A stretch of 64,000 bases of DNA from a virus (lineage: Duplodnaviria; Heunggongvirae; Uroviricota; Caudoviricetes): IMG/VR virus record IMGVR_UViG_2703718775_000013; one strand, 5' to 3'. Numbering within the stretch: position 1 is the stretch's first letter; each line of letters opens with the position of its first letter. The position numbers and the translations under genes are program-made. The notes beneath the pieces are model-generated. The model was not told where the DNA came from. It saw only the letters and a list, made by a program, of their open reading frames with translations, and did no database searches. Shown piece after piece: positions 3,361 through 8,223 of this stretch.

Positions 3361-3437
3361 TGGTGCCGATTAACGGGATCGAACCGCTGACCATTCGCTT
3401 ACAAAGCGACTGCTCTACCAACTGAGCTAAATCGGCA
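3361..3437 (-). tRNA. tRNA-Thr (anticodon UGU)
   Basis: Reverse complement TGCCGATTTAGCTCAGTTGGTAGAGCAGTCGCTTTGTAAGCGAATGGTCAGCGGTTCGATCCCGTTAATCGGCACCA; acceptor stem, T-loop GGTTCGATCC, anticodon loop TTTGTAA, encoded CCA. Confidence 0.75.
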
Positions 3438-3440
3438 ATG

Positions 3441-3527
3441 TGGTGGGGAGTGATGGAGTCGAACCACCCGAGTCGCAATGACAGTAGATTTACAGTCTAC
3501 CCCGCTACCCCTACGGACTAACTCCCC
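3441..3527 (-). tRNA. tRNA-Tyr (anticodon GUA), class II with long variable arm
   Basis: Reverse complement GGGGAGTTAGTCCGTAGGGGTAGCGGGGTAGACTGTAAATCTACTGTCATTGCGACTCGGGTGGTTCGACTCCATCACTCCCCACCA; anticodon stem GTAGA/TCTAC with loop CTGTAAA, long variable arm resembling E. coli tRNA-Tyr, 7-bp acceptor stem, CCA. Confidence 0.75.
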
Positions 3528-3532
3528 TAAAG

Positions 3533-3607
3533 TGGCGATGGTGGGTGGATTCGAACTACCGACCAGTTGGTTAACAGCCAACTGCTCTACCGCTGAGCTA
3601 CACCATC
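3533..3607 (-). tRNA. tRNA-Asn (anticodon GUU)
   Basis: Reverse complement GATGGTGTAGCTCAGCGGTAGAGCAGTTGGCTGTTAACCAACTGGTCGGTAGTTCGAATCCACCCACCATCGCCA; anticodon stem GTTGG/CCAAC with loop CTGTTAA, T-loop GGTTCGAATCC. Confidence 0.85.
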
Positions 3608-4272: not shown

Positions 4273-4289
4273 AAATTTATTAGAGCAAT
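4273..4289. promoter_or_regulatory. C1 repressor operator-like site (perfect match to reverse complement of ATTGCTCTAATAAATTT)
   Basis: AAATTTATTAGAGCAAT read directly; sits at the head of the minus-strand leader/tRNA/ban operon, analogous to the P1 ban-operon operator. Confidence 0.7.
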
Positions 4290-7200
4290 ATACCCAAAAC
4301 GTCATGAGCTACACCTCGAGTGTCCCCCTTACAAGACACAGAACGTCTGGCAAAAAGAGGTTCCACTCTGAAGCCACTGTCATGATAAAGCTCTCTGATG
4401 TTTGGCGCGCCACTGTTAGTAATGAGAACCTTTGCACCTCGACGATGAGCATCCGTCAACAGAGACACCAGGCGTTTTTGCTCTTCAAACTTAAAGTCAT
4501 GACCGGAATAGTTCGTGAATCCCTCTGTATTTGGAAGCGGTTCATACGGCGGATCGCAAAAGATGACATCTCCTTCTCCGGCAGCTTCAATCACCGCTGC
4601 AAAATCACCGCATACAAACTCAGACCGCCCTTCCGCACCGAGGAAGGCTTCCATCTCCTGTAATGGGAAATACGGAGTTTTATACTTCCCATAACCGACA
4701 TTGAACTCACCGGCCTGGTTGTAACGCGTCAATCCGTTAAAACAATGTCGGTTCAGGAACAAAAACGCCGCTGCGCGATGTAAATCATCATAGACTTGTT
4801 TGTTAAACGCATTCCGTACTGCCAGGTATCCTTCCTGTGTGTTGTAGTCCTGGAAGAAACGATGTGCCAGAGTGATAAGTGAATGCGCCTCGCGTTGCAG
4901 AGTCTTGTAAAAGTTAATCAGGTCAGCATTCACATCATTTAGCAGATTTTCCTGGTATCCGGCATTCATGAAGACAGCTCCGCCACCAACGAAAGGTTCA
5001 ATCAGGCGCTTCCCTTCTGGCAAATAGCGAAAGATTTGTTCCAGAACACCAAATTTTCCACCAGCCCATTTGAATATGGACCGTTCGAATTCTGCCGCTG
5101 GTTTAACTTTTCGCTCTTTTGTTTCACTTCCTTCTTTCTGCCGACATACGGCCTTAGTAATCCGATCGCCAATCCAGCGCATTACTGGTATTGCCATACT
5201 ATTGCCGATCGCTTTGTAACGCGGTCCGTCAGCTGCAAGCATTGCGGCCTCTTCTTCGCTTAAATCTGGATAGTGATTGTGCAGATATGCCAGTTCATCT
5301 GAATTAACTTTTTTACGCTTTTCCGTAGGGATCAACGTATGCCAATCAGGAAAACCTTGCAGCCTTTCACATTCGACAGGGGTAAGACGGCGCATTCTAC
5401 CGTCGCCGAGCAATACAATTGGTGCTTCATGGTTACATGTCAAAGTTGGTGCCGAATTATCGGTTTTTATCTCAGCCCCTCCTTGCCCATGTGCCATGGC
5501 AATTATGTTTGTATCATCGCAAGTTCTGATAGCGATGTTTGAAGTATATCTGGTAGTTTCCTTCCCCTCGCCTCTGCTCGGCGCAATATTCCGGCGCACG
5601 CCTTCGAACTCAAAAAGTACCGTTGCGGGATCGAGATCTGTTCGAGCACTTGCGACAACAAACACGCGTCGGCGTCGTTGTGCCACTCCGAAGTATTGGG
5701 CATCAAGGATTCTCCAGGCCACTTTTCGCTGCGGTCCATAAATACAACCACACTGCGGCCACTTTGGAACATGGCAACCGGTTTTGCCATCCCACCGCCA
5801 GAACGCGTTGCTTTTTCCTGATTCAGGTCGATCACCTGGTTCAAATGGCACATCTTCTCCAGCCAATCCGGCAAGGAAACATCCGAAGGCGTTATCTGCC
5901 GATGACAAGACTCCTGGGACATTTTCCCAGACGATAACGGCTGGTTTGAGAAATGACTCAGCCCGTTTGTCGTCAATTGCATTTGCAAGCTCCACATACT
6001 TTAAAGTTAGCGCGCCACGCTCATCATCAAGCCCACCACGTAATCCCGCGATACTGAATGCCTGACAGTTATGGACCACCGCACCATTGAGGATATAGGA
6101 ATGATCACCTTCGACTTCTATGTTGTATACAGTATCTAGGCCTACCGATTTAAACTCTTTGACTGTTCGTAAAAGCATTCCATGAGCCAATCTTGATTTA
6201 CGTGACAATTTCTGCGGGCAGATTGTTACCTGATAATAATTCCGTTGATTTACCACGCGATCCTCGATCACTTTTTTGGGCTCAACTTCAATAAAGCTGA
6301 CCGAAGAAACATAACCACAAGTCTGTGACAACCCCGCAACGCCCCAAGCAAGCGCAGAACTAACACTATTAATTCTAAATCCCGCTTTACCACTTGGTGT
6401 CCCATCAGTATCAAGATAGCCTTGTAAAAACACATGACGCAATGGATGCGACATCACCCATGCAGGGATACGCTTAGCATGGCTTAACTCGCCAAAATGT
6501 TCATTAAGCCAATTGGCATAACACGTATCATTCAAGGTTACTTTGATGCTCCCTCGGATTTCGCTTGCCACGGAAAATATGTTTTCTGGTATGCGGCAAT
6601 GAAACTTTCTCAATTTCTGGCAATTTATGCCAAAAACAACCGCCTTCTTAGATTTACCTCTCCATCTCCTAATATATCCATCGCCAACATAAGCGCCCGC
6701 AAGATACATAGCCTGTTCTTCAGACAAGAACCGAGAACAAATATCTGGAAATGCAATATTGAAATTAGTTAGAGCGCACCATTGATATCCCGGCATATCA
6801 CATGCTGCTCGCCATTCCGGTTCAGACAACAACTCTCTCTTAAAATATGTGCCATTTTTCCGGGTGTTTTGGGCTTTCCACCGAACAGCCAGGAAGGGAT
6901 GGTCATTGGTTGTTCTTATACCTAAAGGCTGCCCAACGGCATTAAGTAACCCCGTATTAGCTATTTTTGAACCAACTCTTTTTACTTGTTGTAACCGCCC
7001 GAGATGACTGACTACGTAATCACCAGGGCAAACATTTTCTATTGGTTTATAGCCATTTTTACAAAGAACCATATGCCCCGCGGTAAAACATGGTGTTCCC
7101 CCGACGAGCACGTCAGGGGATTCGATTTCCCCAGCCAAGACTTTTTTGGCAAGTTTTTTCATGTCGCCAAGGTTGGCAACATGGGGCCAGCGGAGCGCAA

Positions 7201-7321
7201 GAACGGCCGATGGAAAAGGCTCGATTTCAGCAAACCACGCCGGACGCATACCCAACGGTTCCCAGGCAATACTCGCGGCTTCAATTCCACTGCAAACAGA
7301 TCCATAGCACAGCTCTTTCAC
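4280..7321 (-). CDS. dmt: bifunctional DNA methyltransferase: N-terminal C5-cytosine MTase (interrupted by an intein) fused to C-terminal Dam-like N6-adenine MTase
   Basis: 1013-aa ORF. C5-MTase motifs: GGTP|...|CQAFSIAG (split motif IV), VIVWENVPG (ENV), QRRRRVF, GNSM. C-terminal domain has FxGxG-like EPFVGGGAV and DPPY. Start ATG overlaps rdgC stop (ATGA). Confidence 0.85.
6068..7090 (-). other. intein with LAGLIDADG homing-endonuclease domain (residues 78-418 of Dmt precursor)
   Basis: Starts with Cys (CFTAGHMVL, block A), block [11 protein letters not shown], two LAGLIDADG-type motifs [11 protein letters not shown] and [11 protein letters not shown]-terminal [21 protein letters not shown] followed by +1 Cys; excision rejoins GGTP + CQAFSIAG. 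Confidence 0.8.
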
Positions 7322-8223
7322 TGCTTAGCCTCTCCGCCAAGGGCATTTACCAGAGCATCAACCAGGCACGAAATTTCACTGGTCAACAGGAAGAAATCTG
7401 CGTCCAGTCGCTGCGCAACATCTTCACTATCAATATCAGAGTTCTGCTCAAGCAATTCATCCGCAAATTTGACGCTGGTAAGGCTGAAGTTATGGTCCAG
7501 TGTAAATTTAATGCGGTTCTGCCAGTCGAGTGCCAACTTAGTGACGAGCTTGCCAGCTTCCAGGTGTGTGGAAATTTCATCGCTTCCCAAATCCTGCTTT
7601 TTCACTCGGGCAATACCGCCATCCTCAAGCACTGCCTTAAGTTCTGCCGCATCCCCCATTTGAAATCCCTGTGGAGCACTACCATCACGTACCCAGTCGG
7701 TCAGCGTTAATTCAATGGGATTTTCAACACTCAGGGAAACAGCAGGAAGAGAACCCAGAGACTTACGCATAAGCGCGAGCATATCCTCTGCCTGCCGCGC
7801 GCTGGCATTGATATAGATACGTTTAGTTGAACCGTCGTAGATCGCCTGGATAACAGAAAACTTTGAAAAAGCCCGTGGCAGAAGAGAATGCAGAACTTCG
7901 TCTTTCAGGGAGTCCTTCTCTGTTTTCTTCAGTTTACGCGCTTGTTCTTGCTCAAGTTTTTCAATTTTTTCTTGAATAGCTCGCTGGATAACCGGCGGGG
8001 GAAGAATTTTTGTTTCGCGCTTTGCTTCAACAAGGATAAAACCATTTCCATGCATAGCGATAACTTCAGAATTATCACCAAATGGCGATACAAAACCGAA
8101 CTTGGCCATATCCTGACTACCGCATGGCGTGAAAAGGATCATTTTCTTTTTATCTTCTAAGTCGGTCAGATCCGCCTCACGAGAAAGTTTATAAATAGTA
8201 ATGTTTTTCCAGTGCTTAAACAT
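7318..8223 (-). CDS. rdgC: recombination-associated protein RdgC homolog
   Basis: From ATG at 8223: [16 protein letters not shown]...[17 protein letters not shown]...[24 protein letters not shown]...[30 protein letters not shown], collinear with E. coli RdgC; upstream ORF stop overlaps its start. Confidence 0.8.

What the first reader, a model, noticed from the sequence alone, without database searches (positions are those of the whole stretch)
6068..7090. Intein with LAGLIDADG homing endonuclease inserted at the catalytic PCQ motif of the dmt C5-methyltransferase
The 1013-aa Dmt ORF contains a 341-aa insertion with all intein hallmarks: N-terminal Cys (CFTAGHMVL), block B TTNDHPF, two LAGLIDADG-type motifs ([21 protein letters not shown]), C-terminal ...NGAVVHN followed by Cys. 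Removing it joins GGTP to CQAFSIAG, recreating the universal C5-MTase motif IV, so the +1 splice nucleophile would be the methyltransferase catalytic cysteine itself. An intein at this exact site, in a phage-plasmid methyltransferase that is fused to a Dam-like domain and coupled to rdgC, is something I do not recall being described; splicing would gate C5 but not necessarily N6 methylation.
Basis: partly seen in the sequence, partly recalled or inferred. Interest (0 to 1): 0.75.

Follow-up and report, generated by a model that had tools for sequence, protein, structure and literature searches.

The report
Homing intein splitting P1-family Dmt methyltransferase
The dmt methyltransferase gene of this P1-like phage-plasmid is interrupted, exactly at its catalytic cysteine, by a typical self-splicing "protein intron" carrying a homing endonuclease; it is common in public E. 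coli plasmids and in one laboratory P1vir stock, yet I found it neither annotated nor described.

Summary
ORF 4280..7321(-) encodes a 1013-aa Dmt: an N-terminal C5-cytosine methyltransferase fused to a C-terminal Dam. Codons 78-418 (window 6068..7090, minus strand) are a 341-aa in-frame insertion. P7 Dam and reference P1 Dmt lack it precisely; they read GGTP|CQAFS.

The insert has every sequence hallmark of a class-1 intein and two intact LAGLIDADG motifs. A confident AlphaFold model (pLDDT 92.7) matches PI-SceI, the TliVMA intein, PI-PfuI and PI-PkoII. Removing it in silico restores a continuous C5-methyltransferase match through motif IV.

Population data fit recent homing:
- The intein is present in about 31% of dmt-carrying complete E. 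coli genomes.
- It is about 6-fold less diverse than the adjacent N-extein.
- The same intein haplotype sits in Dmt proteins with different target-recognition regions.
- All intein-bearing alleles share synonymous flank markers.

Related inteins occupy the same position, just before the catalytic Cys, in C5-methyltransferases of many phyla and phage contigs. I rate it a new member of a known kind. Ten full-text searches found no description of it. Splicing, endonuclease activity and C5 methylation remain untested.

The parts
4280..7321 (-). dmt precursor ORF (1013 aa plus stop; GTG start): N-extein, intein, C-extein
   Evidence: Intein DNA and a 1021-nt Dam-part stretch are 100% identical to pO111_2, where the CDS has the same 3042-nt length and is annotated only as a Dam family methyltransferase.
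7091..7321 (-). N-extein, aa 1-77: C5-methyltransferase motif I region ([11 protein letters not shown]), ending ...VLVGGTP (Pro at -1)
   Evidence: After in-silico splicing the Pfam DNA_methylase match is continuous over aa 8-135.
6068..7090 (-). Intein, 341 aa (Dmt aa 78-418), class-1 type with an embedded LAGLIDADG endonuclease
   Evidence: GC is 42.7%, against 54.5% for the N-extein and 48.4% for the C-extein.
6770..7090 (-). N-terminal splicing (HINT) half, intein aa 1 to about 107, beta-strands; includes Cys1 (7088-7090) and block B TTNDHPF (6893-6913)
   Evidence: Secondary structure of the model; motif positions; Hint_2 match to aa 1-49.
6206..6733 (-). LAGLIDADG endonuclease domain, intein aa about 120-295 (approximate). 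Motif 1 LAGAYVGDG is at 6677-6703 (Asp137); motif 2 LQGYLDTDG is at 6401-6427 (Asp229).
   Evidence: LAGLIDADG_3 match to aa 221-284. Helices 124-137 and 218-229 in the model. Foldseek matches to I-SceI and PI-SceI. D137 is conserved in at least 90% of relatives and D229 in most.
6068..6130 (-). C-terminal splicing blocks F and G: [21 protein letters not shown], ending His340-Asn341
   Evidence: TIGR01443 intein_Cterm above its cut-off. N341 is invariant among relatives. Aligns with the Spl DnaX mini-intein C-terminus.
6065..6067 (-). +1 Cys (Dmt aa 419): the splice-junction nucleophile and, by homology, the catalytic Cys of C5-methyltransferase motif IV (PCQAFS)
   Evidence: The catalytic role rests on established knowledge of C5-methyltransferases, not on a test here.
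5090..6064 (-). Rest of the C5-methyltransferase in the C-extein (aa 420 to about 744): [15 protein letters not shown], the variable target-recognition region (short, P7-type), [25 protein letters not shown]
4295..5086 (-). Dam (N6-adenine, D12 class) methyltransferase domain, aa 746-1009, wholly within the C-extein
   Evidence: TIGR00571 6.4e-74 and PF02086 1.9e-56
7318..8223 (-). hrdC/rdgC homologue immediately upstream. Its TGA stop overlaps the dmt GTG start (GTGA).

Best explanation
Window 6068..7090(-) encodes a genuine class-1 intein carrying a two-motif LAGLIDADG homing endonuclease. It is inserted between Pro77 and the catalytic Cys of motif IV in the C5-methyltransferase half of the P1-family Dmt protein.

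Proposed mechanism (inferred, not tested):
1. The 1013-aa precursor is translated. Its C5 active site is interrupted by 341 residues, so that half is inactive.
2. The intein performs the standard four-step splicing reaction. Cys1 undergoes an N-S acyl shift. Trans-thioesterification follows to the +1 Cys. Asn341 cyclises, assisted by His340. An S-N shift completes the reaction.
3. The products are a free ~39-kDa intein and a 672-aa Dmt with an intact GGTPCQAFS motif.
4. The Dam domain lies 327 residues downstream in the C-extein. It is a separate folding unit and probably needs no splicing.
5. The released intein, acting as an endonuclease, cuts intein-free dmt alleles at the GGTP|CQAF coding sequence when two P1-like elements meet in one cell. 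Repair then copies the intein plus a few flanking bases. This would explain its spread through about a third of dmt alleles.

What is shown: the identity, boundaries, motifs, predicted fold and population pattern. What is inferred: splicing, cleavage and C5 methylation activity.
For: Insertion and motifs
- A precise 341-aa insertion relative to P7 Dam and P1 Dmt.
- All splicing blocks and the +1 Cys are present.
- LAGLIDADG_3 and intein_Cterm score above their curated cut-offs.

Fold
- AlphaFold2 model with pLDDT 92.7 and pTM 0.89.
- The best PDB matches are PI-SceI (E 6.5e-17), the TliVMA intein, PI-PfuI and PI-PkoII, followed by free-standing LAGLIDADG enzymes.

Host enzyme
- In-silico splicing raises the Pfam DNA_methylase score from 104.9 to 125.8 bits. 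The first matched stretch then runs continuously through motif IV.

Population pattern
- 152 complete E. coli genomes carry the intein, against about 485 carrying dmt.
- All 29 full-length intein-bearing alleles examined have an open 1023-nt intein.
- Intein nucleotide diversity is 0.0057, against 0.036 in the N-extein and 0.014-0.06 in the C-extein. Diversity dips across the intein and recovers gradually on the C side.
- One identical intein haplotype occurs in both 1013-aa (short recognition region) and 1095-aa (long recognition region) Dmt.
- Intein-bearing alleles are scattered among intein-free ones in an extein NJ tree.
- All 29 intein-bearing alleles read ...ACA CCA|intein, and 28 of them read GGA at the Gly codon about 20 nt into the C-flank. 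The 80 empty sites examined read CCT in the P1-like alleles and never CCA in a P1-like allele. This resembles a co-conversion tract.
- The intein's GC content is 6-12 points below the exteins.

Wider family and laboratory material
- Relatives at 27-55% identity sit at the same point in diverse C5-methyltransferases and keep the catalytic residues.
- A laboratory P1vir stock that plaques normally (OP279344) carries a 1013-aa allele with the intein.
Against: - No experiment shows splicing, cleavage or m5C formation.
- The -1 residue is Pro. From my own knowledge, Pro at -1 is unfavourable for the first splicing step in several engineered inteins. It is, however, conserved throughout this intein family.
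- dmt is dispensable in Dam+ hosts (PMC10695390), so selection for splicing may be weak.
- Within the P1-like alleles the intein shows 15 synonymous and 15 non-synonymous variants. This is more relaxed than the N-extein (26:14).
- Hint_2 and Intein_splicing score below Pfam's cut-offs.
- The extein tree comes from a recombining region. General recombination, rather than endonuclease-driven homing, could explain part of the scatter.
- Two of about 32 intein-bearing alleles have a broken N-extein.
Confidence: 0.75

Rival explanations
1. The intein splices, but its endonuclease is no longer active. Its present distribution would then reflect vertical descent plus ordinary homologous recombination among P1-like plasmids, not ongoing homing.
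For: - The synonymous to non-synonymous ratio within the intein is relaxed (15:15).
- The dmt region is clearly mosaic, with several recognition-region lengths and a messy extein tree.
- One relative (P0009) has lost the second catalytic Asp and the penultimate His, showing that decay happens in this family.
Against: - Both catalytic Asp residues and both motifs are intact here and in most relatives.
- All 29 copies examined are full-length and open.
- The sharp diversity trough confined to the intein, together with shared synonymous flank markers, is what recent homing predicts.
Confidence: 0.15
2. The insert is a non-splicing intein relic. The C5-methyltransferase half would be permanently inactivated in these alleles, and only the Dam domain would matter to the phage.
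For: - The C5 activity of P1 Dmt is only 'perhaps' in the P1 and P7 annotations.
- dmt is non-essential in Dam+ hosts.
- Pro at -1 is a poor context for some inteins (my own knowledge).
- In Mannheimia haemolytica a related intein sits in a gene truncated 20 aa after the junction (P0010).
- Reference P1 itself has a Gly-to-Trp change in motif IV.
Against: - Every splicing residue is intact: C1, T61/H64, H340, N341 and C+1.
- The whole C5 extein (motifs I, IV, VI, VIII, X) stays open and conserved in about 90% of intein-bearing alleles and in distant hosts.
- N-extein variants remain mostly synonymous (26:14).
Confidence: 0.07
3. The intein works as a conditional switch, for example sensitive to redox state, temperature or DNA. 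It would delay or gate C5 methylation relative to Dam methylation during P1 development, because the splice nucleophile is the enzyme's own catalytic Cys.
For: - The architecture alone supports it: the catalytic Cys is the +1 nucleophile, Cys1 is also a thiol, and the Dam domain lies outside the split.
- Conditional splicing has been reported for other inteins (RadA, SufB, DnaB; my own knowledge).
Against: - No data here bear on conditional splicing.
- Two thirds of dmt alleles do without the intein, and the intein moves between backgrounds like a selfish element.
- Insertion at catalytic motifs is the general rule for selfish inteins.
Confidence: 0.03

Closest known systems
PI-SceI (yeast VMA1 intein) and archaeal LAGLIDADG inteins (TliVMA, PI-PfuI, PI-PkoII)
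   Same: - Bipartite architecture: a HINT splicing domain interrupted by a two-motif LAGLIDADG endonuclease.
- Cys1, block B TxxH, C-terminal His-Asn and a +1 Cys.
- These are the best structural matches to the model (E 1e-9 to 6.5e-17).
   Different: - Only 11-17% sequence identity.
- A different host protein and a bacterial or phage setting.
- At 341 aa it is more compact than the roughly 360-540-residue chains matched.
Inteins in actinobacteriophage DNA methylases (Kelley et al. 2016, PMC5050341; Gosselin et al. 2023, PMC9957025)
   Same: - A LAGLIDADG intein in a phage orphan DNA methyltransferase, which is a non-essential gene.
- Patchy distribution.
- The intein is far less diverged than its exteins, with transfer between divergent methylase backgrounds.
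   Different: - Kelley et al. class their host enzymes as N6_N4_Mtase amino-methyltransferases, not C5 enzymes.
- Their insertion site is not a catalytic cysteine.
- Their hosts are Actinobacteria phages. Here the host is a C5-methyltransferase fused to Dam in an enterobacterial phage-plasmid.
Inteins at the same site in other C5-methyltransferases (found here; unnamed in the databases)
   Same: - The insertion lies immediately before the motif IV catalytic Cys (PC, DC, EC or IC).
- 27-55% identity to the window's intein, with the same blocks.
- Found in Metarhizobium, Mesorhizobium, Neisseria, Chloroflexota, Clostridia, Arthrobacter, Streptomyces, candidate-phyla-radiation (CPR) bacteria and many phage contigs.
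   Different: - The host methyltransferases are of other subfamilies, and the exteins I reconstructed lack the Dam fusion.
- One is a 141-aa mini-intein with no endonuclease (P0019).
- None is annotated as an intein. The names given are 'Hint domain-containing protein' or 'DOD-type homing endonuclease domain-containing protein'.
Bacterial intein-like (BIL) domains
   Same: They share the HINT fold and the N-terminal Cys.
   Different: From my own knowledge, BILs lack an endonuclease, usually lack the canonical His-Asn/+1 nucleophile junction, and sit in variable regions of secreted or surface proteins. This element has all the canonical junction residues and sits in a conserved catalytic motif, so it is not a BIL.

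Membership tests
Intein (class 1, HINT splicing domain) | In-frame insertion in a conserved host protein, precisely absent from orthologues | tested here: met
   An exact 341-aa gap relative to P7 Dam and P1 Dmt. 83 empty sites were found in IMG/VR.
Intein (class 1, HINT splicing domain) | Nucleophile (Cys or Ser) at position 1 and block B TxxH | tested here: met
   Cys1; T61-N-D-H64 within TTNDHPF. Both are conserved in relatives.
Intein (class 1, HINT splicing domain) | Blocks F and G with a C-terminal His-Asn, followed by a +1 Cys, Ser or Thr | tested here: met
   [12 protein letters not shown]...AVVHN|C. TIGR01443 scores 25.9-28.9 bits against a cut-off of 15.6. N341 is invariant.
Intein (class 1, HINT splicing domain) | Sequence-profile membership of the HINT or intein splicing domain families | tested here: inconclusive
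   Hint_2 scores 28.1 bits against a cut-off of 28.4. Intein_splicing scores 21.7 against 35.8. Both are significant by E-value but below the curated cut-offs.
Intein (class 1, HINT splicing domain) | HINT fold formed by the N- and C-terminal segments | tested here: met
   Prediction only. The model has pLDDT 92.7, and its top PDB matches are all intein-endonucleases aligned over the whole length.
Intein (class 1, HINT splicing domain) | Protein splicing: excision of the intein with ligation of the exteins | not testable with these tools
   Needs expression with western blot or mass spectrometry, plus C1A and N341A controls.
LAGLIDADG homing endonuclease (two-motif, monomeric) | Two LAGLIDADG motifs, each ending in a catalytic acidic residue | tested here: met
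   LAGAYVGD137G and LQGYLDTD229G. Pfam LAGLIDADG_3 scores 34.2 bits against a cut-off of 22.5.
LAGLIDADG homing endonuclease (two-motif, monomeric) | Pseudo-dimeric alpha-beta-beta-alpha-beta-beta-alpha fold | tested here: met
   Prediction only. Helices 124-137 and 218-229 are each followed by strands. Foldseek matches I-SceI, I-AniI and I-OnuI.
LAGLIDADG homing endonuclease (two-motif, monomeric) | Site-specific cleavage of the intein-less allele, and homing | not testable with these tools
   Only indirect support: a diversity trough, shared flank markers, and the intein in several extein backgrounds.
C5-cytosine DNA methyltransferase (host protein) | Conserved motifs I, IV (PC), VI (ENV), VIII (QRR) and X (GN) in order | tested here: met
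   The spliced sequence matches PF00145 at 3.3e-36, and the motifs can be read directly. Catalytic activity and target sequence were not tested.
Bacterial intein-like (BIL) domain | A HINT domain without an endonuclease, in variable non-catalytic regions, with non-canonical C-terminal junctions | tested here: not met
   An endonuclease is present, the His-Asn/+1 Cys junction is canonical, and the insertion is in a catalytic motif.

The most novel reading that the evidence does not exclude
The catalytic cysteine of motif IV in C5-cytosine DNA methyltransferases may be a widespread intein insertion site that has not been catalogued. It appears across many bacterial phyla and phage groups, including the E. 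coli model phage family P1 and a laboratory P1vir stock. In P1-like elements the intein would still be actively homing. Because the splice nucleophile is the enzyme's own catalytic thiol, splicing might add a post-translational delay or condition to C5 methylation while Dam methylation proceeds.
Probability: 0.3. Interest if true: 0.6.

Novelty: new member of a known kind. Interest (0 to 1): 0.42.

Why it matters
- **A tractable natural system.** It offers a natural intein in an E. coli mobile element. Both intein-bearing and intein-free alleles exist in the wild, and a plaque-forming laboratory phage already carries it (OP279344). Splicing with Pro at -1 and homing between co-resident P1-like plasmids could therefore be tested directly in the best-developed genetic host.
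- **An annotation gap.** Hundreds of records call this 1013- or 1095-aa protein simply a Dam-family methyltransferase, hiding both the intein and the C5 domain.
- **A recurrent target.** The catalytic Cys of C5-methyltransferases turns out to be a repeated intein target across phyla. This extends the rule that inteins sit at catalytic motifs of DNA-handling enzymes.
- **Epigenetics of resistance-carrying plasmids.** P1-like phage-plasmids carry resistance genes, and the intein's state may affect which m5C marks they impose.

Tried and rejected
- **Literature.** None found a description of this intein. The only related reports concern inteins in actinophage N6/N4 methylases. Several hits contained 'intein' only in reference lists or in unrelated contexts. 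A comparative paper on 77 P1-like plasmids does not mention dmt at all.
- **Sequence search of the PDB.** This gave only weak hits: Spl DnaX mini-intein at 0.0015 and PI-PkoII at 0.024. The fold search was needed.
- **Normal Dmt domain.** Rejected by the exact gap in P7 and P1.
- **Intron or free-standing endonuclease gene.** Rejected because the insert is in frame with no stops and has splice-junction residues.
- **BIL domain.** Rejected; see the membership test.
- **Second target site in the window.** A search for an intact homing site with up to 3 mismatches found none.
- **A flawed diversity figure.** My first estimate for the Dam end of the gene was inflated because alleles of different length were misaligned. 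I discarded it and recomputed on co-linear segments.
- **A misleading tally.** The 'N-extein broken' count for intein-free loci mostly reflects non-P1 homologues that my start-motif pattern did not match. I do not use it as evidence.
Full report
**1. What is there**

The window contains a 3042-nt ORF on the minus strand (4280..7321, GTG start) encoding 1013 aa. Translation places CFTAGHMVL at residue 78 and ...NGAVVHN at residue 418. The proposed insert is therefore exactly window 7090..6068(-), 341 aa, followed by the Cys codon at 6065..6067.

Profile searches divide the protein into three parts:
- a split C-5 cytosine methylase match (PF00145, 7e-30, in four pieces)
- a C-terminal Dam domain (TIGR00571, 6e-74, aa 748-1007)
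- intein and endonuclease signals in between

The intein signals are LAGLIDADG_3 (34.2 bits, cut-off 22.5) and intein_Cterm TIGR01443 (above cut-off). Hint_2 reaches 28.1 bits (cut-off 28.4) and Intein_splicing 21.7 bits (below cut-off).

The gene follows an rdgC/hrdC homologue, and its start overlaps that gene's stop codon as GTGA. The window's intein DNA and a 1021-nt stretch of the Dam part are both 100% identical to plasmid pO111_2 of E. coli O111:H- 11128. This is a P1-like phage-plasmid in which the 3042-nt gene is annotated only as 'Dam family site-specific DNA-(adenine-N6)-methyltransferase'.

**2. It is a precise insertion**

I aligned the protein with Dmt/Dam of phage P7 (672 aa), reference P1 (754 aa), RCS47 (1095 aa) and a P1 isolate (OP279344, 1013 aa). 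P7 and P1 lack exactly the 341 residues and read ...[15 protein letters not shown]... across the gap.

Deleting the insert in silico raises the DNA_methylase score from 104.9 to 125.8 bits. The first matched stretch then runs continuously over aa 8-135, through motif IV. The +1 Cys is therefore the motif IV cysteine. In C5-methyltransferases this is the catalytic nucleophile (established knowledge, not tested here).

**3. It looks like a functional intein-endonuclease**

All canonical class-1 residues are present:
- Cys1
- block B T61-x-x-H64
- block [13 protein letters not shown]
- His340-Asn341
- +1 Cys

Both LAGLIDADG motifs keep their acidic residue (LAGAYVGD137G and LQGYLDTD229G).

An AlphaFold2 model built on 12 homologues is confident (mean pLDDT 92.7, pTM 0.89). 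It shows beta-rich N- and C-terminal segments flanking a helix-strand domain. Foldseek against the PDB returns only intein-endonucleases at the top: PI-SceI at 6.5e-17, TliVMA, PI-PfuI, PhoVMA and PI-PkoII. Free-standing LAGLIDADG enzymes such as I-SceI follow. Plain sequence search of the PDB was only marginal.

**4. Distribution and signs of mobility**

*Frequency*
- The 1023-nt intein occurs at 98.5% identity or more in 152 of 5426 complete E. coli genomes, almost always on ~90-100-kb plasmids.
- The Dam end of dmt occurs in about 485 genomes, so roughly 31% of alleles are invaded.
- It is also in 129 PLSDB plasmids from E. coli, Salmonella, Shigella, E. albertii and E. fergusonii.
- It is present in phages RCS47 and Ro157c2YLVW.
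- It is present in OP279344, the genome of a laboratory P1vir stock used in infection experiments.
- The exact protein is on at least 1000 contigs and is never named as an intein.

*Diversity among 29 full-length intein-bearing alleles*
- Every intein is open and exactly 1023 nt.
- Intein diversity is 0.0057, against 0.036 in the 231-nt N-extein and 0.014-0.06 in the C-extein.
- A clear trough spans the intein and recovers gradually on the C side.

*Movement between backgrounds*
- One identical intein haplotype is found in Dmt proteins with the short (P7-type) and long (P1-type) target-recognition regions.
- Both region types also exist without the intein.
- In an NJ tree of the flanking extein DNA, intein-bearing alleles fall in at least six places among intein-free ones. 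This tree is indicative only, because the region recombines.

*Flank markers*
- All intein-bearing alleles read ...ACA CCA immediately upstream, and 28 of 29 read GGA about 20 nt downstream.
- P1-like empty sites read GGT ACG CCT (most) or GGA ACA CCT (28 of 80), and never CCA.
- All these differences are synonymous, as expected for markers co-converted with the intein.

*Composition*
- Intein GC is 42.7%, against 54.5% for the N-extein and 48.4% for the C-extein.

Together these are the classic signatures of a recently spreading homing element. They do not prove that the endonuclease is active today.

**5. A wider family at the same site**

A protein search with the intein alone found relatives at 46-52% identity in other C5-methyltransferases. 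It also found more distant ones at 29-32% and a 141-aa mini-intein. Every complete junction lies between the motif IV Pro and Cys.

Scans of genome and viral contigs added dozens more:
- Metarhizobium and Mesorhizobium
- Neisseria
- Chloroflexota
- Clostridia
- Arthrobacter and Streptomyces
- candidate-phyla-radiation (CPR) bacteria
- a cluster of more than 30 related metagenomic phage contigs in IMG/VR

In the more divergent host subfamilies the residue before the Cys is Asp, Glu or Ile rather than Pro. Even so, the spliced exteins still match PF00145. The most remote hits (22-25% identity) are inteins in other host proteins and only reflect general intein similarity.

So the catalytic Cys of C5-methyltransferases is a recurrent intein target. 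The P1-family copy is one member.

**6. How it most likely works**

- The precursor cannot be an active C5 enzyme. Its catalytic loop is interrupted and its catalytic thiol is the splice acceptor.
- Standard splicing would release the intein and create GGTPCQAFS.
- The Dam domain lies entirely in the C-extein, 327 residues from the junction, and should fold on its own. GATC methylation is therefore probably independent of splicing. P1 needs this methylation for pac cleavage in dam- hosts (PMC12707154).
- The released intein would cut empty dmt sites when two P1-like elements share a cell.

All of these steps are inferred. One point of mechanistic interest is the conserved Pro at -1. From my own knowledge, this residue blocks or slows the first step in some engineered inteins.

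Evidence that selection is not strong:
- dmt is dispensable in Dam+ hosts (PMC10695390).
- Intein variants are 15 synonymous to 15 non-synonymous.
- Two of about 32 intein-bearing alleles have a broken N-extein.
- A Mannheimia relative sits in a truncated gene.

**7. Comparison with what is known, and novelty**

In architecture and predicted fold this is an ordinary LAGLIDADG intein of the PI-SceI type. Inteins in phage DNA methylases have been reported, but in N6/N4 amino-methyltransferases of actinophages (PMC5050341, PMC9957025). Those showed the same population behaviour: patchy distribution, and an intein less diverged than its extein.

Ten full-text searches found no mention of an intein in P1, in P1-like plasmids or in any C5-methyltransferase. 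I could not consult InBase, other intein catalogues or subscription journals. Automated annotation already flags relatives as 'Hint domain-containing' or 'DOD-type homing endonuclease'.

I therefore rate it a new member of a known kind: a new host protein and insertion site, not a new mechanism.

**8. Verdict**

Interest is moderate. A specialist would not find the element surprising in kind. Its value lies in three things: a ready-made natural intein and homing system in E. coli and P1, a correction to widespread annotation, and the recognition of a broad, uncatalogued intein family at the C5-methyltransferase catalytic cysteine.

Noticed in passing
L004 (NC_005856.1 P1 reference) dmt codon 74; the equivalent window codon is about 7100-7102(-): Reference P1 Dmt reads VWGTPCQ where the window, OP279344, RCS47 and P7 read VGGTPCQ. 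A single G-to-T change puts Trp inside motif IV, so the C5 half of the reference laboratory P1 may be impaired.
   Followed up: partly
window about 5300-5700(-); loci L070-L095 and L150-L229: The Dmt target-recognition region is modular. C-extein lengths of 595, 677, 730 and 785 aa occur among P1-like alleles, with or without the intein. This suggests several C5 specificities exchanged by recombination.
   Followed up: partly
window 3361-3607(-): Downstream of dmt lie three tRNA genes: Asn(GTT), Tyr(GTA) and Thr(TGT). P1 and P7 records annotate only Asn and Thr here, so this lineage carries an extra tRNA-Tyr, as does pO111_2.
   Followed up: partly
OP279344.1 (L001 3001-6042): A laboratory P1vir stock ('P1 del res del mod', used for Argonaute infection assays) carries the 1013-aa intein-containing dmt. 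The MH445380 and MH445381 'phage P1' records lack it. Laboratory P1 stocks therefore differ at this locus.
   Followed up: yes
P0010 (Mannheimia haemolytica, 439 aa, seen on 578 contigs): A 47%-identical intein sits at the same site, but the reading frame ends about 20 aa after the junction (CQSDKGG...). An apparently intact intein is retained in a decayed methyltransferase gene. Some cluster members are 611 aa.
   Followed up: no
P0019 (306-aa fragment): A 141-aa mini-intein with no endonuclease domain sits at the identical GGTP|CQ site of a related C5-methyltransferase.
   Followed up: no
P0009 (543 aa): This relative has Asn in place of the penultimate His (AVVNN) and Asn in place of the second LAGLIDADG Asp (LDTNG). 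It may be a decaying copy.
   Followed up: no
L038 and L049 (Peribacteria and Gracilibacteria MAGs): These loci have in-frame TGA codons inside the intein (CFKE*TMVLT) and in the C-extein just after the junction. This is consistent with the alternative genetic code of these lineages (TGA = Gly) rather than with pseudogenes.
   Followed up: no
window 5292-5310(-), equivalent to the P7 'LPdam2' feature: The P7 record predicts an internal late promoter between the C5 and Dam halves. The window differs at several bases in and around this stretch. If the promoter is real, a Dam-only product could be made independently of the intein.
   Followed up: partly
L014, L016, L018, L112 (SPD|C...|C[TK]H[FH]S); L021 (SPE|C); L024, L026 (SVI|C): Divergent C5-methyltransferase subfamilies with DC, EC or IC instead of PC at motif IV carry related inteins at the same position. 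The -1 residue is therefore not fixed as Pro across the whole family.
   Followed up: partly
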